Source: a virus
Strand: one strand, 5' to 3'
Length of the DNA stretch: 64,000 nucleotides
IMG/VR virus record: IMGVR_UViG_3300027733_000032
Positions 356-22,136 of the stretch are shown here, piece by piece. Below the pieces are notes generated by a model. The model was not told where the DNA came from and did no database searches. It saw nothing but the letters and a program-made list of their open reading frames with translations. A program made the position numbers and the translations under genes. Every line of letters begins with the position of its first letter. Within the stretch, counting starts at the first letter, position 1.

Positions 356-742
356 ACCTTAGTATCGGTAACAGTATTACGCTAGTTGTCAGATAGTTTA
401 TCCACAGGCTGAGAAGTAGACCCTACATTTACACGAAGGCACAAACATATCAAAATGATATAGATGTGACGCTTATAAGGTATAAGGGGTAAGAGTCCCG
501 ATAAATCTACCCTCAACAAATGACGGTGGTGGAAAGCAACTTGCTGATAGGAGATTCGCCCTCCCCTTCGTGCTCGCAATGGAAAAGCGCATACATCTAG
601 AAGCGAAACGACTAGATGCTGAAAGGGAGGGAGGATGGAGCCATTTGAAAGGGCAAACCGTGGCATCTCCCACCATCCTTACGAAGAAGGCGAAACATTT
701 CTTCCTCAATGGAAAGAACGGGGCTCACCAGCATAGAGACAA

Positions 743-958
743 TCACACAGAGAGAGGGCGACTCGCAAGAGAACCAAGGAACTCATTGCCATCCATCTCC
801 ATCAACGCCCAGTAAGCATCTTTGTAAGAAGGGAACACTGATTCAAAGACAACTTCACCCGTGGCTTTATTCTCCAGCGTCCCCAGAACCTCAGAGCCCC
901 GCACAGGAGCGATACGAATCAGATAGACAAGTCCATTGAGGAGCGGTTGATGTTTCAT
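743..958 (-). CDS. hypothetical protein
   Basis: ORF track; same strand as neighbours. Confidence 0.55.
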   Translation of the reverse strand: MKHQPLLNGLVYLIRIAPVRGSEVLGTLENKATGEVVFESVFPSYKDAYWALMEMDGNEFLGSLASRPLSV

Positions 959-1040
959 GTCCGCACCCTACCCACAAAGCCGTTGAGAAGCAAGTACCGA
1001 ATCTCCGGGGCTGACTCGCTCCCCTATCCAGCCCGAACCG

Positions 1041-1247
1041 TCACACTGCCCCTTCGTACTCACGGGAGTGGAGTGTCTTGCCCGCATAGCGGAGGTCGTA
1101 GGCGAACGAGATGAGCCACGAACCGATGTCATCAAAGGGGTACTCACGAGTGAACTCAAAGGCTCCACAGGCTTTACCGTCGGTCACGACAGCCGTGACA
1201 GAGATGATGTTGGTTTCTAGATTGACTGAGTAGGTGAGGTTGTTCAT
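1041..1247 (-). CDS. hypothetical protein
   Basis: Leaderless ATG after class A promoter. Confidence 0.75.
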   Translation of the reverse strand: MNNLTYSVNLETNIISVTAVVTDGKACGAFEFTREYPFDDIGSWLISFAYDLRYAGKTLHSREYEGAV

Positions 1248-1352
1248 ACTTAGGTATCGGAACAGCCGTTACCTTAGTTGGGCGAATGTTTATCCACAGG
1301 TTGTGAATAAAGTATGAGACAACTACCGTAATACTCCTACCGATATATAGAC

Positions 1353-1547
1353 ATGAGCCACTCCACCTACACCCCCTCCCCCCTGTGCGATGCCTGTAGT
1401 CTCCACGAGCCAACCATGGACTGGTACGACCATGACGAGTTCTTTTGGAACCTGTGCGACGAGTGCTTCACCCGTGACGCTCTCATGGGGGGCGAATGCA
1501 CCTCAGCCTGCGACGGGGACTACGCCTGTGCCCACAACTCCCACTAG
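1353..1547 (+). CDS. Cys/His-rich putative Zn-binding protein
   Basis: Leaderless ATG after divergent class A promoter; CDAC, CDEC and further Cys/His. Confidence 0.75.
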   Translation: MSHSTYTPSPLCDACSLHEPTMDWYDHDEFFWNLCDECFTRDALMGGECTSACDGDYACAHNSH

Positions 1548-1770
1548 TGGGCGACCACTCTGAGTGAGAAAACCACCGAGAGTGAGAGTCCCGCATCCCA
1601 CTAACACGCTTAGATAAATCTATCTGAGTGATATTGGGGGTCGTAGGGGGCTAAAAGAGCGACAAAACTCCGAAATATTTGAAAATGCCGAGAATTCGCA
1701 AGTATTTCGTCCCCTATCAGGTCTTTTGCTGCGAACGCAGAGCGTGATTCTTCACCACTCTCCGTGAGGT

Positions 1771-2031
1771 CTAAAGGTGTATAGCACCCATTTCCTCAGG
1801 TGTGCTTTCCGACGGGGCTCGGCTTACCTTGATTTCCCATAGGGATAGCCAGCCATTCCATCCCTTCCCATTAACCCCTTTCAAGAGGATTTGGTCAGCA
1901 CGGTTCTTGTTCGGCACATAGACGAAGCGAGGTCCATGTTCTTTCACTCGGTTGCGGGTTCTCTTAGATGCGGTAGCCCCGTTTATTGAGACGAGGACTT
2001 CGGTTGGTTCGGTGATGTCGCTCAGGCTCAC
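1771..2031 (-). CDS. hypothetical protein
   Basis: Overlap-coupled ORF in minus-strand operon. Confidence 0.6.
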   Translation of the reverse strand: MSLSDITEPTEVLVSINGATASKRTRNRVKEHGPRFVYVPNKNRADQILLKGVNGKGWNGWLSLWEIKVSRAPSESTPEEMGAIHL

Positions 2032-2267
2032 TAGTTCACTTCTCCTACTCTGATACTTTCGTTATCCCTTGTCATACCCTTCATCAGCATCATGTACTTG
2101 CTTGACCACGATAACGGGACTACCCGTGAGTGTTGCTTGTCGTCATAGCCCGTCCATGTAATACGGAACTTGATTTGCTCTTCGTCTTGTATGTCGTTCT
2201 CCATAGTGATGTCTTTCTGTCTCTTGTAGGTATTAGAGAGTTTGCCAACACTGGAGTTGATATCCAT
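2031..2267 (-). CDS. hypothetical protein
   Basis: ORF track; operon context; start may be downstream. Confidence 0.6.
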   Translation of the reverse strand: MDINSSVGKLSNTYKRQKDITMENDIQDEEQIKFRITWTGYDDKQHSRVVPLSWSSKYMMLMKGMTRDNESIRVGEVN

Positions 2268-2306
2268 TGAGGGAAATACGCCCGCTTTTATCGTCTGTGT
2301 TCCCTT

Positions 2307-2606
2307 TTAGTGGACGAGGAAGCCTTCGTTCAGAACAGTAATCTGCTCCTGACCAGCAGAAACGCTGATAACGAGGTGTTCCATACGCTCGTCGGCAAAG
2401 TAGTCCTGCCATTGGGGGTCGTAGGTTTCGCGCCCGATATAGACACGGTACTCATCTCCACCACCAAGAGCGTTCAGAGCGGTGATAGCAGAGTCGTGAA
2501 TGTCCCGAAATGAGCCCCGATAGACGGTTTTACCGACCTGCTCGTTGTCCCATTGGTCGGCAGAAACCTTGACCAACTTCAGAATGTAGTGGTGATACCG
2601 TTCCAT
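2307..2606 (-). CDS. hypothetical protein
   Basis: Start overlaps stop of upstream gene. Confidence 0.7.
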   Translation of the reverse strand: MERYHHYILKLVKVSADQWDNEQVGKTVYRGSFRDIHDSAITALNALGGGDEYRVYIGRETYDPQWQDYFADERMEHLVISVSAGQEQITVLNEGFLVH

Positions 2607-2953
2607 CAGACGCTCACCGTTGTTCGGTAGTGAGTGAGAACTCGGGTTGCTATATCGCTAGAGGTCGCAGTTTCCCACTTAGTGACCTGCTCGTAGATGG
2701 CACTAATCGTGCTGTCGTTCAGTCGTTCCGTGAGAAACAAGTTCCAGCCAGCACCAGCACCGTGACAGTCAAGGACTGTGACAGAGTGAAAATGACCCTT
2801 GTAGGTGTCCATAGCGACGAACCAGCCCTCATCGTTACCGTCTTGGTAGGCACGCTCAATGTCTTTGCGGTCTATGTCAGACATAATGTCGTCAAGCGTA
2901 TTCCACGCAGAGATACTTCCTGTCAGTGGGCGGTATGTGATGTTGATTTCCAT
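2606..2953 (-). CDS. hypothetical protein, paralog of 9409-9798
   Basis: Start moved to leaderless ATG at 2953; shares FHS.T.LD...GAGWNLFL....D..I..IYE.V. Confidence 0.8.
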   Translation of the reverse strand: MEINITYRPLTGSISAWNTLDDIMSDIDRKDIERAYQDGNDEGWFVAMDTYKGHFHSVTVLDCHGAGAGWNLFLTERLNDSTISAIYEQVTKWETATSSDIATRVLTHYRTTVSV

Positions 2954-3063
2954 ACTTAGGTATCGGTTGGTCTGTTTCGTTAGTTGGGTCACTTTTTATT
3001 CGGGCAGATTATCGCCCTATAGGGGGACTTCGCAACCGGGGCTCCCCGTGCTACATTGGGCAT

Positions 3064-3261
3064 ATGGACTTAAACGACCGTTTCGCTGAATTGGATGCCA
3101 AGTTGGCTGTCCTTGAGGCTGAGGTGGAGTTTCTGTGCCGTGATGTCGCCCGACTTTGGCTGGATACGACGCTGACGCAGCCCCGTCCCGAGGGTTCGCA
3201 GGGTTTATTTAGATTTGTAGAGAAGCCTCGTTGGAAAGCGTGGGACTCTTCGGGGGAATGA
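3064..3261 (+). CDS. hypothetical coiled-coil protein
   Basis: ORF track; heptad-like N-terminus. Confidence 0.5.
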   Translation: MDLNDRFAELDAKLAVLEAEVEFLCRDVARLWLDTTLTQPRPEGSQGLFRFVEKPRWKAWDSSGE

Positions 3262-3276
3262 AAATGGGGACTCTTG

Positions 3277-3349
3277 CGTCTCAGGCAGGGGTCGAACCTA
3301 CAACCTACAGATTAGAAGTCTGTTGCGCTATCCATTGCGCCACTGAGAC
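3277..3349 (-). tRNA. tRNA-Arg (anticodon UCU)
   Basis: Minus strand: acceptor stem GTCTCAG/CTGAGAC, D arm TGGCGCAATGGATAGCGC, anticodon arm ACAGAC-TTCTAA-TCTGT, T loop GGTTCGACCC; 73 nt; no encoded CCA. Confidence 0.93.
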
Positions 3350-3421
3350 AGTTTGACTCTCAGGGAATAGTAGCCCCGTTTCTACGGTCACGCAACGGCG
3401 GTGATAGCAGAGGTATTCCCC

Positions 3422-3598
3422 TTACTTTGGCTTGTCGCCTTGCTTGACTAAGGGGTTGTTCATTGCCTCACGAAACGCTCTGTCGTGGCTTACGCCGTTG
3501 AGGTGTCGCTCTAGGGTGTAAGCCTCACTGAACGGCATACTCCAGCCGTACTTGGCTTTCGTGCGAAGTGTCAGGTGTTTTATGCTTATCTCGCTCAT
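3422..3598 (-). CDS. 58-aa hypothetical protein, paralog of 13486-13665
   Basis: Below ORF-track cutoff; leaderless ATG after class A promoter; GWS..F...Y....H..G.SHDRA...AM..P.V. Confidence 0.75.
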   Translation of the reverse strand: MSEISIKHLTLRTKAKYGWSMPFSEAYTLERHLNGVSHDRAFREAMNNPLVKQGDKPK

Positions 3599-3650
3599 AC
3601 TCAGATATCGGTTTGGGAGTTACGCTAGTTGGGTAACACTTTATCCACAG

Positions 3651-3935
3651 TCAGGATAGTGATTGGTCAATGGCAAGTATCAAGAGGCGTGCCTTTTCCC
3701 ACTCCGACCACTTGATAGCAGCCCCGAGTATCTGAATGAGCACTTTCGCATCATTACTGGTGGGATAGATGTCATCACCATTATCGTGTTCTTTCCCAAG
3801 CCACTCTGCCACAGGGACAAAGGAGAAATCGGGGCTACTGGTGCGCAACACGGCGACTTCGTAACGCCCGTCAATAGCGGTCATAGAGAAAGTATCTCCG
3901 CTGGGTAGGGTGTAATGGAGATTGTCGTGCTTCAT
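3651..3935 (-). CDS. hypothetical protein
   Basis: Start moved to ATG (MKHDNL) preceded by GAAAGGA. Confidence 0.7.
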   Translation of the reverse strand: MKHDNLHYTLPSGDTFSMTAIDGRYEVAVLRTSSPDFSFVPVAEWLGKEHDNGDDIYPTSNDAKVLIQILGAAIKWSEWEKARLLILAIDQSLS

Positions 3936-4037
3936 GAGGGTTGTCCTTTCGGTAAATCTAGGGGAATGATAGCCCCGTTTCTGTGTTCGTGTAATGGTTT
4001 GGGGGGAAGGGTTGCCCCTCACCCCCTTATCAACTAC

Positions 4038-4205
4038 TCAGAGCCACTCAAAGAGGTCTCCGTCAGCGATTTCGCTGTAGTCAAGGTCATTCGCATCAGC
4101 GATTGCCTGCCACACGGCATCCTCTGTCAAAGGAGCGTCAGGGTCAAGAAAATCTTGCCACTGTTTCGTAGGTTCTGTCATTTGGTCACCCCCATTCCCT
4201 GTCAT
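4038..4205 (-). CDS. 55-aa acidic hypothetical protein
   Basis: Leaderless ATG after class A promoter (MTGNGGDQMTEP...); an internal SD-led start is also possible. Confidence 0.7.
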   Translation of the reverse strand: MTGNGGDQMTEPTKQWQDFLDPDAPLTEDAVWQAIADANDLDYSEIADGDLFEWL

Positions 4206-4274
4206 ACCTAGGTATCGGTATCAGAGTTCCGTTAGTTGTCTATGGATTTATCCACAGGGCGGAAATAGCATTAT

Positions 4275-4303
4275 GGGGAGAGAGCGGTCGATGCTCCCTC
4301 CCC
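4275..4303 (-). terminator. GC-rich hairpin downstream of candidate ncRNA
   Basis: GGGGAGGGAGC-7 nt loop-GCTCTCTCCCC on the minus strand. Confidence 0.6.
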
Positions 4304-4324
4304 ACCCTGCCACGATGGACAAGT

Positions 4325-4440
4325 ATCAAAGTAGCCGTGCCATGCCCTCTCAGCACTCTGTCCCTCAGCCAGCATTGAGGTCGGCGCGATGATATCGCTC
4401 GCTCACTGGCTCGGTCGGGTCACATGGGGGCTACCCTGAT
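4325..4440 (-). ncRNA. candidate structured ncRNA, ~116 nt, rod-like
   Basis: Class A promoter with no ATG; 5' ATCAGGGTAGCC pairs with 3' GGCTACTTTGAT; inner helices CCATG/CATGG, AGCCAGT/GCTGGCT and GCGAT/ATCGC. Confidence 0.65.
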
Positions 4441-4839
4441 ATCTAAGTATCGGTTTCAGTATTGCGTTAGTTGGCTAGAAGTTTATCCACAGATTTATCC
4501 ACAGGCTCATATCAGCAGTTTCGCAGGAGTGTTTACTCGGTACGGATAGCCCCGGGTTTACAACCCGATTATGTGTTGCGCAACCAACGACGGTGGCGGA
4601 AAGGAAAATGCCCACAGGCACGGAAATAAATAGCCGTTACGCTGGTCTTTTCTAACAACAAAATCAACGACAAAAGACGGGACTCCAGAGGCACGGGAAA
4701 CAGGGGTACTGGGTGGGTTGCCTAGGGGTGATAGCACTCCGTTTTTGAGTACCTTCACAGCCCCGACATAGTAATCAGCCCCACACCGTTTGGCGTGAGG
4801 CTGACCACTGACAGGGAATTGCTTGGTTGAGATTAGTTA

Positions 4840-5094
4840 CTAGGGCAGGGGGAGCGTCGCTCCATCTACTCCCCAGTACGAGTCCTCCCAACAGCGAACG
4901 AACTGGGGGTCAATGCCCAACAGTACGCCGTAACGCTGGGCAATGGCGGTTGCCTGCTCCTTGTTGAAGCAGGGCATGGTCATAATGCCTGAGTCGCATT
5001 CATCACCCGTAGGTGACCGAAACCAAAAGTGGAGTTCGGTGTCAAGGATACGGATGGCAGTGATATCGCCCTTATGGATTGTCGTGGGTGTCAT
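4840..5094 (-). CDS. hypothetical protein
   Basis: Coupled to 5094-5309. Confidence 0.7.
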   Translation of the reverse strand: MTPTTIHKGDITAIRILDTELHFWFRSPTGDECDSGIMTMPCFNKEQATAIAQRYGVLLGIDPQFVRCWEDSYWGVDGATLPLP

Positions 5095-5309
5095 TACTGT
5101 CCTTCCTTGTTGATGATGCGGAGAATGTCTTGGCTCATGTTGAGACCGCCAACGAGAGCAGTCTGAATGGCGTTCTTCAATGCCCGTGGCGTTGCCAACG
5201 GCAAGTAGTTGTCAATTTCGTCCCAAGCCTTGAGACCAGCACGGATTGCTTCGCAGGTCTCTTGGGCGTACTGGGCGTACTTTTCTTCGTGGGTTGTAGT
5301 TGTTTCCAT
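5094..5309 (-). CDS. hypothetical protein
   Basis: Leaderless ATG after class A promoter. Confidence 0.75.
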   Translation of the reverse strand: METTTTHEEKYAQYAQETCEAIRAGLKAWDEIDNYLPLATPRALKNAIQTALVGGLNMSQDILRIINKEGQ

Positions 5310-5415
5310 ACTTGGGTATCGGTATGTCTATCCCCTTAGTTGGGTCAGAGTTTATCCACAGGGCTGTGGATAAAGTGCCGCACAACTACCGCAACACTGA
5401 GACCGATACCTTATT

Positions 5416-5532
5416 ATGATTGACCTTATAAAAGAAATTGCATACATCGTCGGCACACTAACAGCGTGGGCATTGTGTATCTCGCCATTGGCGATTACGC
5501 TACTCACCAACCTACCCGATGACGACCAATGA
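5416..5532 (+). CDS. 38-aa single-TM peptide
   Basis: Leaderless ATG after divergent class A promoter; MIDLIKEIAYIVGTLTAWALCISPLAITLLTNLPDDDQ. Confidence 0.7.
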   Translation: MIDLIKEIAYIVGTLTAWALCISPLAITLLTNLPDDDQ

Positions 5533-5543
5533 AGGGAACGGAC

Positions 5544-5723
5544 ATGAAGTACCGAGTTACATACACACGCCACGATGACCGACTCTTTGTCGGCAGTCAG
5601 GGAGTTTCTTTCTTTCGCACGGAACACGGGGCTGCCCGTTTCCTCGGACAGTTGGAAGAGTCTTACAACATTGACCAAGACTCCATCGTCGTCCACATCT
5701 TTGAGGATGGCGAACAGGCGTAA
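5544..5723 (+). CDS. hypothetical protein
   Basis: AAGGGA SD before ATG 5544; track starts at 5529. Confidence 0.65.
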   Translation: MKYRVTYTRHDDRLFVGSQGVSFFRTEHGAARFLGQLEESYNIDQDSIVVHIFEDGEQA

Positions 5724-5807
5724 CAAGGATAAGCGGAAGCCCCGGCTATTCTTGAGATGTGAGTGTGGTTAGCAGGTCGGAAGCCAACGCCTCCACACCA
5801 CAAAACG

Positions 5808-5845
5808 AAAGCCCCCCACCAAGTCAATCAGCGGTGGGGGGCTTT
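5808..5845. terminator. bidirectional intrinsic terminator
   Basis: AAAGCCCCCCACC-12 nt-GGTGGGGGGCTTT between convergent genes. Confidence 0.8.
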
Positions 5846-5955
5846 TGTGCTTGCTCGGACTTAGAAACGGGGCTCCCTCGGATTTAGAAACGGAGAGTGT
5901 AGATATGCGAAAGTTCCCCACCGTGATGAACGGCAGGGAACTAGGGGGAGGTGGG

Positions 5956-6078
5956 TCAGAGCGACCGTAGTACTCGCTCAACTCTGCCATCTCGGCACTC
6001 GCAGTCGGTTTCTACGACTTCGCAGGCTTGGCAGACAGGCTCGTCATTATCTTGGGCTGGGGTTGATGTGTTGTTCAT
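5956..6078 (-). CDS. 40-aa Cys-rich peptide
   Basis: Leaderless ATG after class A promoter; CQAC...CEC. Confidence 0.65.
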   Translation of the reverse strand: MNNTSTPAQDNDEPVCQACEVVETDCECRDGRVERVLRSL

Positions 6079-6133
6079 ACTTATGTATCGGTATGAGAGT
6101 TACGTTAGTTGGGTCATTATTTATTCGCTTGGG

Positions 6134-6343
6134 CTAGATGGATGAGGCTCCGAACCGTGCTCCACCAAGAGCGGAGTCGCAGGCATCACATTGACTCCAA
6201 GAGAAGTCAGTTGTATCTACTGAGTCCACCACTAGGGGTCCCGTGCGCCCTATCCCCGACTTGACACGGAGTTCAGTCTCCGAGTCCATACCCGAGAAGT
6301 CGTTGTTGGCGTGCGCCATAGCGCAGTCTACGCAAATGTTCAT
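6134..6343 (-). CDS. small Zn-finger-like protein
   Basis: C-x2-C at both ends (CVDC, CDAC); SD-led ATG at 6343. Confidence 0.7.
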   Translation of the reverse strand: MNICVDCAMAHANNDFSGMDSETELRVKSGIGRTGPLVVDSVDTTDFSWSQCDACDSALGGARFGASSI

Positions 6344-6441
6344 TGTTTCATCTCCATACCTGTGTATCGGTTTCAGTATTCTATTAGTTGGGCGAGAGTT
6401 TATCCACACCCAACGAAGATGTGCTCGAAACTCGGGGCTTC

Positions 6442-6663
6442 TCAGTCTAAGAGTGGTTTGAGTATGTTGCGCAAGTCAAGGAGAGAGTCGGTCATTTCCG
6501 ATGACGAACAGATGTTCGTGTTGCCGATGTCCTTCAGTACGCCATCAATAATTGCGAGTGACTTGCGGATGGCGGTGATTTCTAAGTCCCGCTCTCCGAC
6601 TGCCATCTCAACAATAGTTGCGGTGTCGTCAATGATGTTGTGTGAGTTTGTCATTTTGCTCAT
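6442..6663 (-). CDS. hypothetical protein
   Basis: ATGA overlap with upstream gene. Confidence 0.7.
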   Translation of the reverse strand: MSKMTNSHNIIDDTATIVEMAVGERDLEITAIRKSLAIIDGVLKDIGNTNICSSSEMTDSLLDLRNILKPLLD

Positions 6664-7025
6664 TCCTCGTCCTCGTCATCCTCATCGTCTTGACTGAGAA
6701 ACTCCTCATCGGTCATCCAGTCGCCCTGCCCGATGAGACTTGTGTAGCCAGCGTTCGGGTTCTCGTGGTCTGTGGTGACTGCGTTGATGAACTTTAGCCC
6801 GCAAGACTCGTCCCACCAGACTTTTAGGGTGGCGAACATTTCCTCGGGAGTCCCCGTGAAAGTGCGGTCGGTACAACTTCTACCGTTGTAGTTCTGACGG
6901 AACCAGTCTGCTTGTTCCTCATCCATTGCCACATAGATTTTGTGGCAACCGTCAAAGGCTACGAGGAGTGCGTCCTCAACAGCAGTTTCTACTCGGTCAA
7001 ATAATTCGTCAAGTGTTTTGGTCAT
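6660..7025 (-). CDS. hypothetical protein, paralog of 23743-24078
   Basis: Leaderless ATG; DALLVA[FW]DGCHKIYVA motif shared. Confidence 0.85.
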   Translation of the reverse strand: MTKTLDELFDRVETAVEDALLVAFDGCHKIYVAMDEEQADWFRQNYNGRSCTDRTFTGTPEEMFATLKVWWDESCGLKFINAVTTDHENPNAGYTSLIGQGDWMTDEEFLSQDDEDDEDEE

Positions 7026-7091
7026 ACTCAGGTATCGGTTCTGTCGTTGCGTTGGTTGTGTCTAAGTTTATCCACAGGTTTATCCACAGTG

Positions 7092-7427
7092 TCATCGGCT
7101 ATCAATGTGTAAGTCGGAATGGTTCTGAGCAATGACCGCAGCCTCAACCCACGGAGCCCCGTCTTCCCACTTGTGCTCGGGGAAGTCGCATAACTTTGTT
7201 GCTTCGTCACCGAAGTACCACAATGAGTAATGCCAAGTAGGGTCGTTGTCGCCATCAAAGTAATCCCACACCTGAACAAGCAAGTAGTGGTAGATGTCAA
7301 GGTTGAAGTGAGCGCACGGGGCTACCGCACCAAGAGAACTCTCTTGCTCGTAACCTTTTATCAAGGTGTCGTGTACAAGTTCAGTGATACATCGCAGGTC
7401 GCTCATCTGTTTTCCATTCTTATCCAT
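7092..7427 (-). CDS. hypothetical protein
   Basis: ORF track; operon context. Confidence 0.65.
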   Translation of the reverse strand: MDKNGKQMSDLRCITELVHDTLIKGYEQESSLGAVAPCAHFNLDIYHYLLVQVWDYFDGDNDPTWHYSLWYFGDEATKLCDFPEHKWEDGAPWVEAAVIAQNHSDLHIDSR

Positions 7428-7474
7428 TATAGGTGAACCTAGAGCGCAGTTTGTTAGCCCCGAGTTCCACTCTC

Positions 7475-7756
7475 TTAGAGACGACCGCCGTAGTCACGCT
7501 CGTGCCAGTAGCGGGTTTCCCAGCGAGCCTGCTCGTCGGCATCTCGGATTTCTTTTTCAATCTCGTTATAGATTTCGGTCATTGCCTCAATCACCCGTGT
7601 GTTCAGGATATCGGCGAATGTGTCGTGTGGGATTTTGTCGCTCTTTGTTTCGTCGTACCAGTTGAATAGCGCGTGCCATTCTCCGATGTTTCTCGCATCG
7701 TATGCGTCTGCGATGATGCCTCTGACGATTTCTGTGAAGTGTGCGGTGGTTTTCAT
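7475..7756 (-). CDS. hypothetical acidic protein
   Basis: Leaderless ATG after class A promoter. Confidence 0.8.
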   Translation of the reverse strand: MKTTAHFTEIVRGIIADAYDARNIGEWHALFNWYDETKSDKIPHDTFADILNTRVIEAMTEIYNEIEKEIRDADEQARWETRYWHERDYGGRL

Positions 7757-8005
7757 ATCTAGGTATCGGTTGCGATGTTTCGTTAGTTGGGTGGTTATTT
7801 ATTCGGGGTCGGTGCGTGCGAATGAGAGCCCCGCACCTGTGTGCCGAACGAAACGGGGCGGAATGGAAACTCGGGGCTGTCACGCCAATGCGGTCGTGGG
7901 GTCGTGTGTGATGTTTCCGAGAACGGCACTAGGGGGCTTATCCAGCCCCCCTACCTTGGGGTCAAGCCCCTGCGCCCCTGTGTTGGGGGCTATGTGCGCT
8001 CGGTG

Positions 8006-8164
8006 CTAGGCGAGCAGTTCAGCCACTTGGCGAGCCACCAACGCCTGTAGGCGATGGCAGTCATTGCCGTGAGCCGACTGCGCCTCAGCGAGCAAGCGCA
8101 AGAGTTCCTGCGCCATAGCCACTCGGTATGAGACTTTCATATTTTCACCTCCGTTCCCTGTCAT
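8006..8164 (-). CDS. small hypothetical protein
   Basis: Leaderless ATG at 8164 (MTGNGGENM...) or SD-led ATG at 8140. Confidence 0.65.
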   Translation of the reverse strand: MTGNGGENMKVSYRVAMAQELLRLLAEAQSAHGNDCHRLQALVARQVAELLA

Positions 8165-8337
8165 ACCTAAGTATCGGTTCGGGTGTTGCGTTAGTTGGGT
8201 CGCCACTTATCCACAGAGTCGCCACTCGCCCACGGGGTGGTGTCCCCAGCGGGTGCGTGCGAGCGTGCGCCCTCGTGCGTATGCGGGGGCGGAGCCCCGT
8301 TCTTGTGTTACGCAACAAGTGACGGTGGCGGAAAGGA

Positions 8338-8544
8338 TTACCCTACGAGAGTTTCTATTTCAGTTGAGACAGACCTGACATCCCAGCCGTATTGGAAGGT
8401 GAGGCACCTCGACGCAAGTTCGGTTGCGACCTCCAACAGTTCGTCGGGGCTCATGCCCGCTATATCGGGTTCTTCGGGGTCAAGTTCCACGCTTGTTATT
8501 AGCGTGAAGTAGTCGCCAATGAAGGTGACGGTGTACGGGTTCAT
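8338..8544 (-). CDS. hypothetical protein
   Basis: ATGA overlap with upstream gene. Confidence 0.7.
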   Translation of the reverse strand: MNPYTVTFIGDYFTLITSVELDPEEPDIAGMSPDELLEVATELASRCLTFQYGWDVRSVSTEIETLVG

Positions 8545-8924
8545 TCGTCATTCACCTCAATGGGAGTGACGGTGATAGTTCCGCTAGCGTCGTGGTGCGA
8601 AAGAAAGCCCGTCAGGTGAGTGGCGTGAACGGTAAGTTCTAAACGCCATTCAGTGCGGTCAGGCGTAATTGACTCAAGCAATTTTTCGGCGGTTCGGGCG
8701 TGAAATGTTCCGCTGACCGTTCCATCCCATCGGGGGAAGCCCTCAATGCGAAACTCTTGGTTGTTTTCGGTGAACAAGTGTTCCGTAATTTCCTGAAAAT
8801 GCTCAACTTGGTCAGTCCAGCAGTCTCCCCAACATTCGGGGGCTTCATCCCAGTCGCCTGAGTCATCGTTGTAAGTGACGCAGGTACAAGTATTGGTGAG
8901 TGTGGCGGTTGTTGTGGTGGTCAT
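8541..8924 (-). CDS. hypothetical protein
   Basis: Start moved to 8924, 6 nt after class A octamer; poly-Thr N-terminus. Confidence 0.8.
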   Translation of the reverse strand: MTTTTTATLTNTCTCVTYNDDSGDWDEAPECWGDCWTDQVEHFQEITEHLFTENNQEFRIEGFPRWDGTVSGTFHARTAEKLLESITPDRTEWRLELTVHATHLTGFLSHHDASGTITVTPIEVNDE

Positions 8925-8966
8925 ATCCATATATCGGTATCACTATTCCGTTAGTTGGGTCATTAT

Positions 8967-9317
8967 TTATTCGCCCTTGAGTATTCTCAAGACTTCTTTG
9001 AGGTCGTCTTTGACTTGCTCTTGTTCGTCGTGAGTCCAAGCGTCGTCATCAACTATGAACTTGGTTGCGATGAACGCCGTAATCGTTGGTACAACCACGA
9101 ACACGGCAGACATAACTAACAGTATGCCCATAATCCTGCCACTGACAGTGTGAGGGTACTCGTCGCCGTAGCCAACAGTGGTAAGCGTCATCATTCCCCA
9201 CCAAGCAGAGTCCCAAGCATTGTGGTGTTCTGTGACTCCATAGGTTGCTATTGCGCCTATGTAAACAGAGGTCAAATAGCCAGCAAGCAAGAACATCCTG
9301 CGATGTGTTGTGTTCAC
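8967..9317 (-). CDS. two-TM potassium channel (KcsA-like, Ion_trans_2)
   Basis: Pore helix and filter WDSAWWGMMTLTTVGYGDEYP flanked by two TM helices; leaderless GTG after class B promoter. Confidence 0.9.
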   Translation of the reverse strand: MNTTHRRMFLLAGYLTSVYIGAIATYGVTEHHNAWDSAWWGMMTLTTVGYGDEYPHTVSGRIMGILLVMSAVFVVVPTITAFIATKFIVDDDAWTHDEQEQVKDDLKEVLRILKGE

Positions 9318-9408
9318 TACTTCAGCAAACTGTCTATTGGTATAAGAAACAACCTGTGTATAGATTTATTTGTCCACAGGGTGTGGATAACTCGGGGCTT
9401 CGGCAGCA

Positions 9409-9798
9409 TCAGGTGATTAGGCAGTCGCCATCAACGACAACCGTTTCCATGTATCGCATGAGTACCGCCTCACGCAAGTTGCTTGGCGTTCCTACGCTAT
9501 CCCATAGGGAGACGAGTTCGTATATTTCCTCAATGACTTCATCGGCTAAGTAGTTGCTCAGAAACAAGTTCCAACCAGCCCCGCTCTCAAACACATCAAG
9601 TGCTGTCATTGAGTGAAAGTAATCCAACCCGTCGGCGTGTCTAGTGGCGATAGCGACATGCCAGTCCCCATTTTCGGGTGCGTCAATATATGAGCAATCC
9701 AACCTGCCTCGCTCTTCGTCAGTCATCGTGTTATCTACATCACTCCATAGCGTGAGTGAATGTGAGAATGGGCGATAACAAATATGGATAATGGTCAT
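9409..9798 (-). CDS. hypothetical protein, paralog of 2606-2953
   Basis: ATGA-coupled start at 9798; shared GAGWNLFL motif. Confidence 0.8.
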   Translation of the reverse strand: MTIIHICYRPFSHSLTLWSDVDNTMTDEERGRLDCSYIDAPENGDWHVAIATRHADGLDYFHSMTALDVFESGAGWNLFLSNYLADEVIEEIYELVSLWDSVGTPSNLREAVLMRYMETVVVDGDCLIT

Positions 9799-10166
9799 GT
9801 CATCAGACTTGCTCTCCACTCAGCGTGGGTGACAATGAAGTTTCTTGCTGAGTATCGCTTATCCTCGTAAACAATGAACGGCTCTCCATCTCCCTGAAAG
9901 AATACTGTAGGGATAGGGTATTCATTATCGCCTGCTGGTTCTCCGACCATAATGCCGTAGCCCGTTGCCTCGCCCGTACAACCCGTAAGGGTGTCAAAGA
10001 TAATGCGACTAGCGTATGTCTCATCGTCAAGCCTGCCGTTATCGTGTGCCTTGTATAAGCCTTCAGCCAATATGCGAGCAATGTCATCGCCGTGCCAATG
10101 TGTATAGAAGTAGATAGGCGTTGCGTTCGTACTCTGAACGATGCCGATATGTCCTCGTGAGCCCAT
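9795..10166 (-). CDS. conserved phage hypothetical protein (MG.R...Y.HW.G type)
   Basis: SD-led ATG at 10166 (GAGGGAG); MGSRGHI...YTHWHG resembles a widespread phage family. Confidence 0.75.
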   Translation of the reverse strand: MGSRGHIGIVQSTNATPIYFYTHWHGDDIARILAEGLYKAHDNGRLDDETYASRIIFDTLTGCTGEATGYGIMVGEPAGDNEYPIPTVFFQGDGEPFIVYEDKRYSARNFIVTHAEWRASLMT

Positions 10167-10218
10167 GATAGGTACTCCCTCTCTGTAGGTGTACCTATCT
10201 ATCGGTATGGGAGTTTCG

Positions 10219-10584
10219 TTAGTTGGGCGACTTTTTATTCTTATGCCCGAACAGTCGGTTGAGCCACCCGAGTCCCGCATCCGAGCGTGACCGCTCTTCG
10301 TTTTCTGGCAAAGAGTCATTCCAATGAGGAAGGTTTTGTTGGTGAACCATCTCCAATAATCTGTGTGGGTTCAGCGTATGTCGCCACACACGGTCACCGC
10401 TATCCTCGTATAAGTCCAAGACAAAAGAGTCAATCTCGTAATCGGCTGTAACCCACTCACCATCGGGGCTCTCAACCTGCGGGCAGTTGAGTATGTCCGC
10501 TATACCAATGGTCAAGTCGCCGAGTTCCAAGTCAGTTGCGTCGTCATCTGTGGTGAAGGTTATGTTGATGTTATAGACAGCCAT
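10219..10584 (-). CDS. hypothetical protein
   Basis: GGAG SD before ATG. Confidence 0.7.
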   Translation of the reverse strand: MAVYNINITFTTDDDATDLELGDLTIGIADILNCPQVESPDGEWVTADYEIDSFVLDLYEDSGDRVWRHTLNPHRLLEMVHQQNLPHWNDSLPENEERSRSDAGLGWLNRLFGHKNKKSPN

Positions 10585-10589
10585 TGAGT

Positions 10590-10755
10590 TCTCCGAGGTC
10601 CCGCCGTCACAGTAGCATTTACGGGGATAAAGCGAAGCACCCCCACACCAAGTCGAGGGTGTGAGGGTGCCGTCTCCCCGACATAACAGGGATTAGGTGA
10701 AGGTTGTCGGGGGAGATGTCTTAGGGCAGGGCTTGCGCCCCACCCCCTAGCCCGT
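10590..10755 (-). ncRNA. candidate multi-hairpin RNA element
   Basis: Four stacked hairpins incl. GGGC-GCAA-GCCC (GNRA loop), TCTCCCCCGACAA/TATGTCGGGGAGA, GCACCCTCACACC/GGTGTGGGGGTGC; no ORF. Confidence 0.45.
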
Positions 10756-10758
10756 GAC

Positions 10759-10965
10759 TCAGAGTTCGTTAGCCATACGACTAGCCATACGAGCCATTGT
10801 CTCGCTGAGTCTGGCGTACGCTATGCCCAAGTTTTCGTTGGTGACGAAAGGGCAGAACGGTGACTCAACTCCAGCAGAGATGAGGGCTTGGACTCCAGCG
10901 ATTGCGCTGATGAGTTCGGAAATGGTCATTGCCTGCGTTGTGCGCTCGGCGTAGGTGGTGGTCAT
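10759..10965 (-). CDS. hypothetical protein
   Basis: Leaderless ATG after class A promoter. Confidence 0.75.
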   Translation of the reverse strand: MTTTYAERTTQAMTISELISAIAGVQALISAGVESPFCPFVTNENLGIAYARLSETMARMASRMANEL

Positions 10966-11070
10966 ATCTATGTATCGGTATGGGTATCTCGTTAGTTGCG
11001 TGTTTGTTTATCCACAAGGTGTGGATAAGTTCTGAGACAACTAATAAAACTCCCGAACCGATAAGTGAGT

Positions 11071-11277
11071 ATGACAGAGTTTATCTATCCCGAAGTTGGC
11101 AAAGTAGCCAACATAAACAACTTTAACCGCTCGGGCATTAAGGCGTTCGTTAGCGATGGTGGCACTAAATGTCGCCGTTGCGATAGGCTCATTGCTGAGG
11201 GCGAAACCTTTACTTGGGTTCGTGGCAAGGGTAACTATCACATCGGAAGTTGCCCCAAACCTGAGCAGGAGAAGTAA
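11071..11277 (+). CDS. small Zn-binding protein
   Basis: Leaderless ATG at 11071; CRRC...H...C. Confidence 0.75.
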   Translation: MTEFIYPEVGKVANINNFNRSGIKAFVSDGGTKCRRCDRLIAEGETFTWVRGKGNYHIGSCPKPEQEK

Positions 11278-11453
11278 TGGGCATCATTTCTAACATCGTC
11301 GCCTACAAAATCGGCAAGAGTCGTGGAAGTCGGGACTCCGAAGTTGTTGTCGTGAATGAAAGTCGTGACCCTGAGTGTCTCAACTACGAGTCGTTCTGTA
11401 AAAACTTTGGTTCGTGCGACGGGCAGGAATGTGATTACGGCGATGATGAATGA
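11277..11453 (+). CDS. 58-aa Cys-rich hypothetical protein
   Basis: TAATG overlap with upstream stop; below track cutoff. Confidence 0.6.
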   Translation: MGIISNIVAYKIGKSRGSRDSEVVVVNESRDPECLNYESFCKNFGSCDGQECDYGDDE

Positions 11454-11673
11454 CAATGCCAGCGTCTTTATTGACGGCGTTCCTAGCCCCGAGGAAATGG
11501 AAGAGTTCAACAAAGGTCCATTTATGGCTATGCGGACACGAATGGGTCCGACTGTTTACTGGGGTCCGTTCGCCACTCTTGACGATGTTCGTTCGTGGGT
11601 GTCACAGCAACACTTCAGCGTTGCGATAATCAAACTAAATGACCCGAACGGCAATCCTGACTCTTGGTGGTAA
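11443..11673 (+). CDS. hypothetical protein
   Basis: Start moved to 11443, overlapping previous stop. Confidence 0.6.
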   Translation: MMNDNASVFIDGVPSPEEMEEFNKGPFMAMRTRMGPTVYWGPFATLDDVRSWVSQQHFSVAIIKLNDPNGNPDSWW

Positions 11674-11686
11674 AAAACGGGGCTAG

Positions 11687-11875
11687 TCACCACGCCTTGC
11701 GTATGTAAGCAAAGTCCTTTTCAGTTACTCTGACTCGCCTATTCACCCGTTGCTTAGGCAATAACTCAGGTCGGAGTTCTTTGAGTTCCATCACGAAGCA
11801 CTCAGAGAACGGAATGTGAGCCCCGCACTCTTGGTAACGCTGGTGAACGGCGTTGAGGAAGTCAGCGAATGTCAT
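11687..11875 (-). CDS. hypothetical protein
   Basis: ATGA-coupled start at 11875. Confidence 0.55.
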   Translation of the reverse strand: MTFADFLNAVHQRYQECGAHIPFSECFVMELKELRPELLPKQRVNRRVRVTEKDFAYIRKAW

Positions 11876-12180
11876 CGCATTGAGGGGTGTGTCACGGGAA
11901 TGAGTAGTGAGCGAGAACGCCCGTACCACAGCCCACTTAAACCTCTGTATCGGTACACCTTGTCTGTCCCCACGAAGCGAACATAGCGAGGTGCCCCACC
12001 ATTGCGCCACCTATTGCGGATTGGCTCAACGCAAACGGAGTTAAGACCCGTGTTCAGATAAAACTGCGGACTGAACCAACTGAACCTATAAGTCAAAAAT
12101 GCCATAACGCCGACAGCCCCGTACACGGGGTCAGTCTTGACATCAACGATGCCGTACACGCCATTGGGGAGAGTGTTCAC
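11872..12180 (-). CDS. hypothetical protein
   Basis: Overlap-coupled. Confidence 0.6.
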   Translation of the reverse strand: MNTLPNGVYGIVDVKTDPVYGAVGVMAFLTYRFSWFSPQFYLNTGLNSVCVEPIRNRWRNGGAPRYVRFVGTDKVYRYRGLSGLWYGRSRSLLIPVTHPSMR

Positions 12181-12437
12181 TTGGTCACCATTCCTGCTAT
12201 TTCGTCGTAGCCCTGTGTGTAGCCATTCTCAAACATTGCAATGAGTCCAGCCTTGACTTTTTCGTCGCTGTTGGGGTTGTCATTGTCCCCGAACACAACG
12301 GCAATGAGCCATAGGTCGGAAACATAATCCCAAGGCTCGGTGTCCTCAAGCGTGAACATTCCAACGACTGCGTCGGCTGTACCTATTTCGTAGCCACGCT
12401 GATATGCCTGCTGTGCGATTTTCAAGTTGTTTGTCAT
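12177..12437 (-). CDS. hypothetical protein
   Basis: Leaderless ATG at 12437 after class A promoter. Confidence 0.75.
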   Translation of the reverse strand: MTNNLKIAQQAYQRGYEIGTADAVVGMFTLEDTEPWDYVSDLWLIAVVFGDNDNPNSDEKVKAGLIAMFENGYTQGYDEIAGMVTK

Positions 12438-12498
12438 ATTCATCTATCGGTTCGGTGATTTCCTTAGTTGGGTCAAAGTTTATCCACAGGAATAGAGA

Positions 12499-12727
12499 AG
12501 CCCACCAACGAGAGGGCGACTCTCCATCGGTTGCTCTCCATCTAGATAGAGAGCCGAGGCGTTCATAGTCCTTGCGGGTGCGTGTCGGGCAGAGGGTGGC
12601 GTGAGTGATGGAGGGACTGGGTACACCGCCTAGGACAGGTAGAGCCAGTATCGCATACTCAGAGGCGGTCGTAACCTTCAGAGGCTTGCGGTGCTATGTC
12701 CGCCCCCCGATGTTGCTGGTGGGCTAC
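12499..12727 (-). ncRNA. candidate structured ncRNA, ~229 nt
   Basis: Class A promoter with no ATG; 5' AGCCCACCAGC pairs with 3' GTTGGTGGGCT; CATCGG/CCGATG, ACCGCCT/AGGCGGT, CTCTCTATC/GATGGAGAG, GAGAG/CTCTC helices; C-rich central tract. Confidence 0.7.
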
Positions 12728-12905
12728 ATCTGAGTATCGGTTAGGCGATTGCGTTAGTTGTCTCAATGTTTATCCACAGATTTATCCACAGGATGATTTC
12801 AATAAGTACGCCATACATTTCACGATGCGTGTACGCACGGGGGAAGCCCCGGCTTCATAACGCAACGCTTGACGGTGGCGGAAAGGAACTATAAAGTTAC
12901 ATTCC

Positions 12906-13196
12906 ATGCCGACAATCAAAGAAATTAAAAAACGCAACATAGAGGCAGATGAACACTTCTTTGATGTGGAAACAATCAACTTCTTTAACAGCAAGGTTTA
13001 CAGGACTACTCACGGGTTTCACTTCACAACCTCAGAGCGGGGCCCCTCGGGAGTTCGTTGTTACTCGGTTCGTGTGATTGATTGGGAAACAGGAAGAATT
13101 AAAACCGTAGGTAAGTTCCAGCAGTTTTCCACTTTGCGAGAAGCATACAAGTTTGCTGACAAGCAGAACACTTGTTCGTCGCAGTTGAATAACTAG
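12906..13196 (+). CDS. conserved phage hypothetical protein
   Basis: HFFD..T..FF.S+V...F.TSE motif resembles a known phage family. Confidence 0.7.
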   Translation: MPTIKEIKKRNIEADEHFFDVETINFFNSKVYRTTHGFHFTTSERGPSGVRCYSVRVIDWETGRIKTVGKFQQFSTLREAYKFADKQNTCSSQLNN

Positions 13197-13489
13197 AGTT
13201 TGTAGTCGCCAATACATTTGTAGGAGTCCGAGCCCAACTCCATAACATACAAGGTGTAGCCCTTAGGGAACTGCGGACGGTTGCGTTCTACCAAGCCCCG
13301 CACGGTGGACACTCGTTCCATTGCTTCTTTCTTAGTTGCGTAAGAGCGATAACAACGACCATCGGTTTCCCATTGCGACAGAACACAAAACTCGGGGCTC
13401 TGCGGAAAGGCTACGACCTCAACGCCATTAGGAAGGGCGAAGGTTGCTGTTGGCTTTGCGCCTTTTTTGAGTGTCCCTGTGGGCTTCAT
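13193..13489 (-). CDS. hypothetical protein
   Basis: ATGA-coupled. Confidence 0.65.
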   Translation of the reverse strand: MKPTGTLKKGAKPTATFALPNGVEVVAFPQSPEFCVLSQWETDGRCYRSYATKKEAMERVSTVRGLVERNRPQFPKGYTLYVMELGSDSYKCIGDYKL

Positions 13490-15893: not shown

Positions 15894-16165
15894 AAGTATG
15901 TATCGGTATCAGTATTGCGGTAGTTGGTTGATGGTTTATCCACAGAGTTATCCACAAGACCTTGTAGGATTTTGTAGATTGCGAGGTCTGCTTGCTCTAG
16001 TTCCTCTGTAACGGGGCTCCACTCCATCTCGCTGTCGTTCCAAATGGTTCGCTGTGAGTCAATGGCTATGTCAGGCTGTACGACGAAACGCAGTTGCCCG
16101 TCCCGCATCTCCGCCATCACGGGGAAATAGAACTGTAAGCCTTCGGGGATTTCAGGTGCGTCCAT
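15890..16165 (-). CDS. hypothetical protein
   Basis: Start moved to MDAPEI just after upstream stop. Confidence 0.6.
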   Translation of the reverse strand: MDAPEIPEGLQFYFPVMAEMRDGQLRFVVQPDIAIDSQRTIWNDSEMEWSPVTEELEQADLAIYKILQGLVDNSVDKPSTNYRNTDTDTYL

Positions 16166-16889: not shown

Positions 16890-17162
16890 TTACACGGTGG
16901 CGGAAAGGGAACTGCGCAACAGCGAACCGTGAGTACAGCCCCGCACTTGGACATTAGCGTACCTGTCTCGGTAGTAATCCACCCGTGCTTCGGCGACTTC
17001 TCGCTCGTCAGAGTTTGAGATGCTATGGATTTCCCACTCAACAGGTTCTATGATGCCCTTAGCAAACTCCTCGTCATCAGGATTTAGTGGATAATGAGCG
17101 AGGATAATGATGTGAGACAAGTCTGTGCTCTCATCGGGGAACTTAATGTATGTTTGCTTCAT
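16890..17162 (-). CDS. hypothetical protein
   Basis: Leaderless ATG 5 nt after class B variant GTTTGCTG. Confidence 0.7.
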   Translation of the reverse strand: MKQTYIKFPDESTDLSHIIILAHYPLNPDDEEFAKGIIEPVEWEIHSISNSDEREVAEARVDYYRDRYANVQVRGCTHGSLLRSSLSATV

Positions 17163-21893: not shown

Positions 21894-22136
21894 AAGTTCA
21901 GTGAACTCCCTATTCATAACTTTCACAACCTATAAAGCAAACTTTCTTTAGGAATGTTTACCTTGGTTGTGTGGGCGTTCGGTAGCCCATCCGTGTATCG
22001 GTATAAGAGTTACAGTAGTTGTGTGTAAGTTTATCCACAGGACTGTGGACGACAGGTCGGCACATATGTAGTAGCCGTGCATCACCCGTGAGCGCACCCG
22101 TGATGATTGCTTCTACAAGCGACGGTGGCGGAAAGG

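What the first reader, a model, noticed from the sequence alone, without database searches (positions are those of the whole stretch)
12499..12792. Candidate ~229-nt multi-domain ncRNA sharing an identical double-DnaA-box promoter with the 4.4 kb RNA
Seen: no ATG at +1; 11-bp terminal helix; several internal helices; a C-rich central tract. The upstream 24-mer TTTATCCACAGATTTATCCACAGG is identical at 4482-4505 and 12769-12792; both RNAs have GTAGCCC near the 5' end and both loci have the polar 15-mer ~80 nt away. Known: actinobacterial Ms1/6S-like RNAs of 200-300 nt bind RNA polymerase. Inference: a phage RNAP-binding or decoy RNA.
Basis: partly seen in the sequence, partly recalled or inferred. 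Interest (0 to 1): 0.72.

Follow-up and report, generated by a model that had tools for sequence, protein, structure and literature searches.

The report
Orphan early small RNA of actinophage
A 230-base gene-free stretch in the early region of an uncultured lake phage most likely makes a compact folded RNA of unknown job. It is one of three such RNAs that begin exactly at a promoter type otherwise used for leaderless protein genes, and nothing ties it to RNA polymerase.

Summary
The "double-DnaA-box promoter" is not private to two RNAs. It is one copy of a ~55-nt promoter module found 30 times in window 1-31 kb; 24 copies place an ATG at a fixed position, and 23 of those open ORFs of at least 38 codons (leaderless mRNAs). 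The "4.4 kb RNA" is not supported: that promoter drives a second small closed RNA (4440->4325), followed by ordinary genes.

Window 12727->12497 (minus strand) is a credible stand-alone non-coding RNA gene:
- It has no start codon at +1 and no conserved ORF.
- An 11-bp helix joins nt +3..+13 to the last bases of the conserved block.
- It is 97.8% identical in the only relative found, against 89% genome-wide and about 67% in the adjacent promoter.
- Conservation stops at the helix end.

Among 59 promoter-anchored transcripts in both phages, only the start-codon-less units (three different RNAs) have a +1-anchored helix of 10 bp or more.

The support is limited. There are only two near-identical sequences and no covariation, the fold z-score is only moderately unusual, and there is no transcript data. 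No Rfam family matches (6S included), and the fold is branched, not a 6S-like rod. Function is unknown; the closest analogue is the abundant Pleft non-coding RNAs of mycobacteriophages L5/D29.

The parts
12769..12792 (-). Two tandem DnaA-box-like upstream elements (CTGTGGATAAA x2, 12-bp phasing) of the RNA-1 promoter
   Evidence: The relative also has two boxes here. Tandem boxes also occur at 7067-7089 and 15935-15956, ahead of protein genes.
12727..12760 (-). Class A promoter core (CAACTAACGCAA-N8-CCGATAC-N-); the predicted +1 is G12727
   Evidence: One of 30 cores with fixed spacing. It ranks 17 of 30 by leave-one-out weight-matrix score. The +1 is inferred from the fixed ATG position in 24 sister promoters.
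12497..12727 (-). RNA-1: predicted ~231-nt non-coding RNA, a compact multi-branch fold
   Evidence: MFE -92 kcal/mol, z -2.9. 5 mismatches in 233 nt against the relative. No conserved ORF. No Rfam match.
12715..12725 (-). 5' strand of the closing helix P1 (nt +3..+13)
   Evidence: pair probabilities 0.87-1.0, and unchanged in a read-through context.
12499..12509 (-). 3' strand of the closing helix P1. Homology with the relative ends 2-3 nt further on.
12437..12489 (-). Next class A promoter (single box 12479-12489, core 12470-12437), serving the leaderless gene 12177-12437
   Evidence: The homologue P0001 starts at the same MTNNLK.
12870..12886 (+). Polar motif GACGGTGGCGGAAAGGA, about 80 nt upstream of the boxes
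   Evidence: 8 copies, all on the + strand. It overlaps a sigma-70-like TTGACG-17-TAAAGT facing the + strand gene 12906-13196.
4325..4440 (-). RNA-2: a second promoter-anchored closed RNA (116 nt, 12-bp helix from +1), the true product of the partner promoter
   Evidence: It is followed by a 13-bp terminator-like hairpin at 4273-4305. It is absent from the relative.
4440..4505 (-). Promoter of RNA-2, carrying the identical 24-mer (4482-4505)

Best explanation
Window 12727->~12497 (minus strand) is a stand-alone gene for a ~231-nt non-coding RNA of an uncultured freshwater phage, probably of actinobacteria.

It is transcribed by the same machinery as the early leaderless mRNAs, from a class A promoter with two upstream boxes. 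Instead of AUG, the transcript starts GUAGCCC and folds on itself. An 11-bp helix seals nt +3..+13 to the 3' end and encloses a branched, GC-rich core.

I infer that it accumulates as a stable free RNA early in infection and acts in trans by binding (titrating) a host or phage macromolecule. The partner is unknown, and RNA polymerase is only one candidate among many.

Shown here: the anatomy, local conservation, absence of coding signal and absence of any Rfam match. Inferred: the transcription start, the discrete 3' end, stability and trans action.
For: 1. Promoter context. There are 30 class A cores with fixed spacing. 24 carry an ATG at one fixed position, and 23 of those open ORFs of at least 38 codons, against 33% of random ATGs reaching 40 codons. 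RNA-1 has GTA at that position.

2. Helix test. Over 59 promoter-anchored transcripts in both phages, the only +1-anchored helices scoring 10 or more are RNA-1 (11 bp, in both phages), RNA-2 (12 bp) and RNA-3 of the relative (11 bp). Every promoter with the fixed ATG scores 8 or less. One other start-codon-less promoter of the relative (30261) scores 9.

3. Conservation. Mismatches to the relative are 5 in 233 nt inside the RNA, 23 in 69 nt in the adjoining promoter, and about 10% in neighbouring genes. Homology breaks 2-3 nt after the helix, where the relative has a different promoter and a translocated gene.

4. Independence from the downstream gene. That gene has its own promoter in both phages (class A here, class B in the relative). 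In the window it has no Shine-Dalgarno sequence, so a read-through transcript would not serve its translation.

5. No coding signal. The longest ORF (48 codons, GTG start) has 3 amino-acid changes and a different C-terminus in the relative.

6. Folding. z = -2.9 to -3.1 on the minus strand against -0.9 on the plus strand. P1 pair probability is about 1.

7. Precedent. L5, D29 and StarStuff make very abundant, stable, ORF-free RNAs directly from their early promoter Pleft (PMC5712189).
Against: - Only two sequences exist, 98% identical. There is no compensatory change, and 4 of the 5 substitutions fit the fold on either strand, no better than chance (chance of 5 of 5 about 0.15).
- 5.5% of all 230-nt windows are at least as conserved, because the two genomes are mosaic.
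- 2 of 26 random windows fold as far below their shuffles, and the GC-regressed energy is only about -1.1 SD.
- There is no conserved U-tract terminator after the helix, so a discrete 3' end is not demonstrated.
- There is no expression data.
- No further homologue was found in IMG/VR, phage GenBank records, plasmids or sampled Actinomycetota.
Confidence: 0.5

Rival explanations
1. It is a cis-acting operon leader. The upstream promoter gives a read-through transcript whose structured 5' domain acts on its own transcript or polymerase: a 5' stabiliser, an attenuator, or a put-like antitermination RNA that makes RNA polymerase termination-resistant.
For: - There is no conserved U-rich terminator after P1, and P1 forms equally well in a read-through transcript.
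- Four of the eight polar-motif copies lie 80-110 nt upstream of class A boxes (4592, 8324, 12874, 22124). The promoters behind them all have non-standard starts: RNA-2, an ATG followed by an internal SD-led ATG, RNA-1, and an ORF-less leader. This suggests operon-initial leaders.
- Class A then class B tandem promoters with short ORF-less spacers exist at 20092, 21988 and 24971.
- An earlier scan note (e1-5901520) reads a similar closed RNA in another actinophage as a leader.
Against: - The next gene has its own promoter in both phages and, in the window, no SD for translation from a longer transcript.
- The RNA is conserved while its downstream neighbour differs.
- RNA-2 is followed by a 13-bp terminator-like hairpin.
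- RNA-3 of the relative points away from the adjacent gene.
Confidence: 0.22
2. It is a spacer with no function of its own: a remnant between tandem promoters that looks conserved because this segment was exchanged recently between two mosaic phages, with structure at the level expected for GC-rich DNA.
For: - 5.5% of windows are as conserved.
- About 8% of random windows have as low a z.
- The substitutions are uninformative.
- It is an orphan sequence.
Against: - The +1-anchored helix is specific to the start-codon-less units in three unrelated sequences.
- The edges of the conserved block coincide with the predicted +1 and the helix end, while the promoter next to it has 33% mismatches.
- A 230-nt ORF-free stretch is unusual in a region where 23 promoters start translation at +1.
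Confidence: 0.17
3. It is a DNA-level element rather than an RNA: for example a transcription-primed or DnaA-dependent replication start (boxes, then a promoter, then a G-run that could favour an R-loop), or a protein-binding or recombination site.
For: - Tandem DnaA-type boxes lie upstream.
- G6-G7 runs sit near the 5' part of RNA-1 and in RNA-3.
- A module breakpoint lies exactly at the 3' edge.
Against: - The boxes accompany most of the 30 promoters, so they are not specific.
- Folding is strand-asymmetric.
- There is only a single copy, and no target-site duplication flanks the inverted repeat.
Confidence: 0.06
4. A small protein is encoded: the 48-codon GTG ORF 12626-12480 (minus strand), or the 42-codon ORF 12605-12733 (plus strand).
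For: Both ORFs are open in both phages.
Against: - The 48-codon ORF has 3 amino-acid changes and a divergent, longer C-terminus in the relative.
- Neither ORF covers more than about 60% of the uniformly conserved 233 nt.
- No SD and no promoter-anchored start serves either ORF.
Confidence: 0.03

Closest known systems
[quoted passage not shown] 2017, PMC5712189)
   Same: Both are in an actinobacterial phage and are the first thing transcribed from an early promoter. Both regions are ORF-free (there, no ORF over about 30 codons that is conserved), and function is unknown in both.
   Different: There is no sequence similarity: a blastn of 12100-13300 against 50,697 phage records found nothing. 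The L5 region is about 500 nt at a genome end and gives several species, and its abundance and toxicity were measured. Here nothing is measured, and the RNA is a single 231-nt closed fold inside the early arm.
6S RNA (Rfam RF00013) and mycobacterial Ms1, RNA-polymerase-binding RNAs
   Same: Similar size range (about 180-300 nt), paired 5' and 3' ends, and a promoter-driven stand-alone gene.
   Different: No covariance-model match at any threshold. The predicted fold is multi-branched without a large central bubble. No look-alike was found in sampled Actinomycetota genomes.
Promoter-proximal cis-acting phage RNAs: HK022 put RNAs and the lambda pR'-tR' 6S transcript (from my own knowledge, not tested here)
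   Same: A structured RNA immediately downstream of a phage promoter, which could act on the transcribing polymerase or be extended by antitermination.
   Different: put is about 70 nt with two stem-loops and needs no 5'-3' closure. The lambda 6S transcript ends at a canonical terminator. Here the next gene has its own promoter and there is no conserved terminator.
5'-terminal stem-loop mRNA stabilisers (ompA, aprE and SP82 early leaders), cited as closest by earlier scan note e1-5901520 for a closed 131-nt RNA in another actinophage
   Same: A helix begins within 1-3 nt of the 5' end, and the host group has 5'-end-dependent RNases.
   Different: Stabilisers are short hairpins in front of a translated gene. 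RNA-1 is 231 nt and is followed by a promoter, not by a translatable start.

Membership tests
6S RNA (RF00013 and related Rfam models) | Match to the family covariance model | tested here: not met
   cmscan against all 4227 Rfam 15 models found nothing at gathering scores over the window. At E <= 5 over 4000-13200 and E <= 10 over 12480-12760, only irrelevant hits appeared: flg-Rhizobiales at 20.6 bits, a snoRNA, and HOTTIP.
6S RNA | Long irregular rod with a large central bubble that mimics an open promoter | tested here: not met
   The MFE, centroid and two-sequence consensus folds are multi-branch with 4 branch points. The largest unpaired stretch is a 13-nt hairpin loop. This is prediction only.
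6S RNA / Ms1 | Binds RNA polymerase (holoenzyme for 6S, core for Ms1) | not testable with these tools
   Needs co-immunoprecipitation or a gel-shift assay.
Ms1 (mycobacterial 6S-like RNA) | Sequence or structure similarity to actinobacterial Ms1 genes | tested here: inconclusive
   No Rfam hit, but I did not verify that Rfam 15 holds an Ms1 model. BLAST over 401 and the covariance model R1 over 151 sampled Actinomycetota genomes gave only chance-level hits. The host genome is unknown.
Early-promoter non-coding RNAs of actinophages (L5/D29 type) | ORF-free region directly downstream of an early promoter | tested here: met
Early-promoter non-coding RNAs of actinophages (L5/D29 type) | Very abundant, stable transcript that is toxic to the host | not testable with these tools
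   There is no transcriptome and the phage is uncultured.
Early-promoter non-coding RNAs of actinophages (L5/D29 type) | Sequence homology to the L5/D29 right-end RNA | tested here: not met
   No blastn match in 50,697 phage records.
tRNA / tmRNA / Y-RNA-like | Detected by ARAGORN or the Rfam tRNA, tmRNA or Y-RNA-like models | tested here: not met
   The only tRNA is tRNA-Arg at 3276-3349. Nothing was found at 12.5 kb.
MITE-like mobile element (terminal inverted repeat reading of P1) | Multiple copies and a target-site duplication | tested here: not met
   One copy per genome by covariance model and BLAST. No direct repeat flanks the inverted repeat.

The most novel reading that the evidence does not exclude
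RNA-1, RNA-2 and RNA-3 form a class of start-site-sealed decoy RNAs that this phage lineage fires from the DNA arm that probably enters first. Each would neutralise a host factor (RNA polymerase or sigma, an RNase, or an RNA- or nucleic-acid-sensing defence). The variable ones would be swapped between phages like anti-defence cassettes: RNA-2 is replaced by the unrelated, inverted RNA-3 at the same locus.
Probability: 0.13. Interest if true: 0.7.

Novelty: new member of a known kind. Interest (0 to 1): 0.4.

Why it matters
Phage-encoded stable RNAs made in the first minutes of infection are known, but almost none has a function; the L5/D29 Pleft RNAs have been unexplained since their discovery.

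This lineage offers a clean case. A single promoter type gives either leaderless mRNAs or, when AUG is replaced, RNAs whose 5' end is sealed by a helix. One of these RNAs is conserved, while another is swapped between close relatives. If expression is confirmed, these RNAs are compact candidates for pull-down of their partners. They also give a simple computational rule for finding more phage RNAs: a promoter without a start codon plus a +1-anchored helix.

As it stands, this is a computationally plausible orphan RNA, not a mechanism.

Tried and rejected
Searches for a known family or a homologue:
- Rfam at three stringencies found no family.
- ARAGORN found nothing here.
- blastn of the locus found nothing in phage records or plasmids.
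- The promoter pattern in genome, viral and metagenome collections found only a 3-kb near-identical fragment (L002), one Actinomycetes MAG contig with a single promoter copy (L001; only one copy in that MAG), and nothing new in IMG/VR.
- Protein-anchored searches with both neighbours, an alignment and a 496-aa early protein found only IMGVR_UViG_3300027732_000054.
- Three more IMG/VR pattern scans (promoter core, promoter plus GUAGCCC, RNA interior) gave only chance hits.
- BLAST and covariance-model searches of sampled Actinomycetota genomes gave weak hits with many non-canonical pairs and were rejected.

Other ideas tested:
- RNA-1, RNA-2 and RNA-3 as paralogues: they share only GTAGCCC, and the pairwise alignment z-scores are 0.5, 2.3 and 3.7, which is not convincing.
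- Substitution pattern as evidence for structure: uninformative.
- Small-ORF explanation: rejected.
- MITE reading: rejected.
- Neighbouring proteins: all of unknown function (DUF7447, DUF3846, PHROGs without function), so they give no RNA-related context.

Full report
**What the window is.** Bases 1 to about 38,000 (about 50% GC) are a dense block of small ORFs, mostly on the minus strand. No whole genome is held for the window. Earlier notes of this scan describe it as the early arm of an uncultured freshwater phage of about 150 kb, probably of actinobacteria. I did not re-test that. It fits the leaderless gene starts found here and the single promoter copy on an Actinomycetes MAG contig.

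**The "double-DnaA-box promoter" is a 30-copy module.**
- TTTATCCACAG with up to 1 mismatch occurs 30 times, against 1.3 expected.
- Read in the direction of transcription, the sites align over about 55 nt. The consensus is CTGTGGATAAA-nnnTnACC-CAACTAACGnAA-N7-ACCGATAC-nTAnnT-ATGA, with fixed spacing. A minority carry GAATAAA instead of the box.
- In 24 of 30 copies an ATG sits at one fixed position. 23 of these open ORFs of 38-165 codons, whereas only 33% of random ATGs open 40 or more codons.
- No Shine-Dalgarno sequence precedes these ATGs. I therefore read the module as a promoter whose +1 is the A of a leaderless start codon. This is an inference, in line with the known frequency of leaderless mRNAs in Actinobacteria.
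- Six copies lack the ATG: 4440, 10192, 12727, 20092, 21988 and 24971.
- The exact 24-mer is shared only by 4482-4505 and 12769-12792. Tandem boxes also precede the protein genes at 7025 and 15893. By weight-matrix score the two RNA promoters are ordinary members, ranks 4 and 17 of 30.

**Anatomy of the flagged element.**
- From the promoter-aligned +1 (G12727) the minus strand reads GUAGCCCACCAGC.
- Nt +3..+13 pair with 12509-12499 (11 bp, one G-U), with pair probability about 1.0. This also holds when 200 nt of downstream sequence are added.
- Inside is a branched fold with 79 pairs, about 60% GC and 34% C.
- Ten bases after the helix, the upstream box of the next class A promoter begins. 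That promoter serves the leaderless gene 12177-12437.

**The partner locus is the same kind of unit, not a 4.4-kb RNA.**
- Promoter 4473-4440 starts AUCAGGGUAGCC, which pairs from +1 with 4336-4325 (12 bp). This closes a 116-nt RNA, which I call RNA-2.
- A 13-bp terminator-like hairpin follows (4305-4273). After it comes another class A promoter with a coding ATG at 4205.
- Bases 1-4205 hold further promoter-anchored ORFs and a tRNA-Arg.

**The one relative found.**
- IMGVR_UViG_3300027732_000054 (39 kb) is collinear with window 1-33.6 kb at 89.2% identity.
- RNA-1 has 5 mismatches in 233 nt. The adjoining promoter has 23 in 69 nt, and neighbouring genes differ by about 6-16% per 50 nt.
- Homology ends 2-3 nt after the 3' strand of the closing helix. 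At that point the relative carries a class B-type promoter and a gene that lies at 24597-24851 in the window.
- So the RNA is a module with its own boundaries, and in both phages the next gene has its own promoter.
- RNA-2 is absent from the relative. At the same intergenic site the relative has a class A promoter pointing the other way, which starts GUAGCCCGCAC and closes an 86-nt RNA (RNA-3) with an 11-bp helix.

**The most telling test.**
- For all 59 class A promoters of both phages, I looked for the longest helix between the first 8 nt of the predicted transcript and anything 40-300 nt downstream.
- Scores of 10 or more were found only for RNA-1 (both phages), RNA-2 and RNA-3.
- All promoters with an ATG scored 4-8.
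- Three unrelated sequences thus share the format "no start codon plus a helix anchored at +1". This is hard to explain if they were mere spacers.

**Limits of the evidence.**
- The two RNA-1 sequences are too alike for covariation. On the single-sequence fold, four of the five changes are compatible with pairing on either strand, as expected by chance. The two-sequence consensus fold looked better only because it left one site unpaired.
- The genomes are mosaic: 5.5% of all 230-nt windows are at least as conserved.
- Against its own shuffles RNA-1 folds at z about -3, and the plus strand at -0.9. However, random windows of this genome average -0.67 +/- 1.28 and 2 of 26 reach -3.1. The energy regressed on GC is only about 1.1 SD below expectation.
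- No canonical terminator is conserved after the helix.
- There is no expression data.
- Further homologues could not be reached. IMG/VR, GenBank phages, plasmids and sampled Actinomycetota gave nothing.

**Coding alternatives.** The longest ORF in RNA-1 has 48 codons, a GTG start and no SD. In the relative it has three amino-acid changes and a different C-terminus. A 42-codon plus-strand ORF covers only 129 of the 233 evenly conserved bases.

**Comparison with known RNAs.**
- Nothing in Rfam 15 matches, including 6S, even at E <= 10 on 281 bases. The same holds for RNA-2.
- The predicted shape is branched, not a 6S-like rod with a bubble.
- The RNA-polymerase-decoy reading therefore rests on size alone.
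- The nearest documented analogue in behaviour is the set of very abundant, stable, ORF-free RNAs that L5, D29 and StarStuff make directly from their early promoter Pleft. Those are toxic to M. smegmatis and still of unknown function (PMC5712189). There is no sequence similarity to them.

**Verdict.**
- A stand-alone early non-coding RNA is the best reading (about 0.5). I favour trans action as a stable binder or decoy, but only weakly.
- A cis-acting operon leader (stabiliser, attenuator or put-like) is the main rival (about 0.2). It gains some support from the recurrent order polar motif, hairpin, boxes, promoter, non-standard start at four sites.
- A functionless spacer remains possible (about 0.17).
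- Interest is moderate. This is an orphan member of a known but poorly understood kind, with a useful structural rule and an intriguing cassette swap, but without function or expression evidence.

Noticed in passing
window 1-31000 and relative G001 (L023/L024): The -35-like block of the class A promoter is (C)CAACTA in 30 of 30 window promoters, but (T)GAAC(T/C)A in 29 of 29 promoters of a phage that is 89% identical overall. This is a wholesale switch of promoter specificity, and it implies a phage-specific recognition factor that co-evolved with the promoters. The factor was not identified: the early ORFs gave no informative Pfam match, and the 1661-aa protein at 39745-44730 has HTH and sigma-r4-like hits.
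   Followed up: partly
window 4325-4440 (-) versus G001 8448-8533 (+): RNA-2 of the window is replaced in the relative, at the same intergenic site, by an unrelated closed RNA (RNA-3) on the opposite strand with its own class A promoter. All three RNAs share only GUAGCCC at or near +1.
   Followed up: partly
window 4588-4604, 8320-8336, 12870-12886, 16892-16908, 22120-22136, 25130-25146, 36473-36489, 37202-37218 (+): The polar motif GACGGTGGCGGAAAGG has 8 copies, all on the + strand. Four of them lie 80-110 nt upstream (in the minus sense) of class A boxes, with a hairpin plus GGGGCT between at least at 4592 and 12874. This may be an operon-boundary or terminator module, or a + strand promoter (TTGACG-17-TAAAGT at 12869-12897).
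   Followed up: partly
window 4701-4985 (-), 10851-11185 (+), 5626-6035 (+), 10626-10860 (-), 7901-8160 (-): These are the strongest GC-corrected predicted folds in the early arm (residual z -2.7 to -3.5), stronger than RNA-1. 4505-4840 appears ORF-poor and may hold another RNA.
   Followed up: no
window 4205 and 8164 (-); G001 8344, 13653, 7730, 11082: Paralogous starts ATGACAGGGAAYGGRGGTGAnnAAATATG combine a promoter-anchored leaderless ATG with an in-frame SD-led ATG 8 codons later. This suggests possible dual initiation. They also share an 8-bp helix between +7 and about +245.
   Followed up: no
window 20092, 21988, 24971 (-): Class A promoters without a start codon are followed after about 50-60 nt by a second promoter type (AAAGTTTGCnTTATAGGTTGT...AATAGGGAGTTnACTGAAnTTATG) with an SD-led gene. 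The same second type follows RNA-1 in the relative.
   Followed up: partly
L001 (JBAWVW010000113.1, Actinomycetes MAG, 78-122): There is a single complete class A promoter of the window's CAACTA type at the end of a 4.4-kb MAG contig, and it is the only copy in that 2.2-Mb MAG. It is probably a binned phage fragment, and a weak host clue.
   Followed up: partly
window, both strands: GTAGCCC occurs 18 times, often as GTAGCCCCG / CGGGGCTAC, including just upstream of tRNA-Arg (3370). It is an over-represented word of unknown meaning.
   Followed up: no
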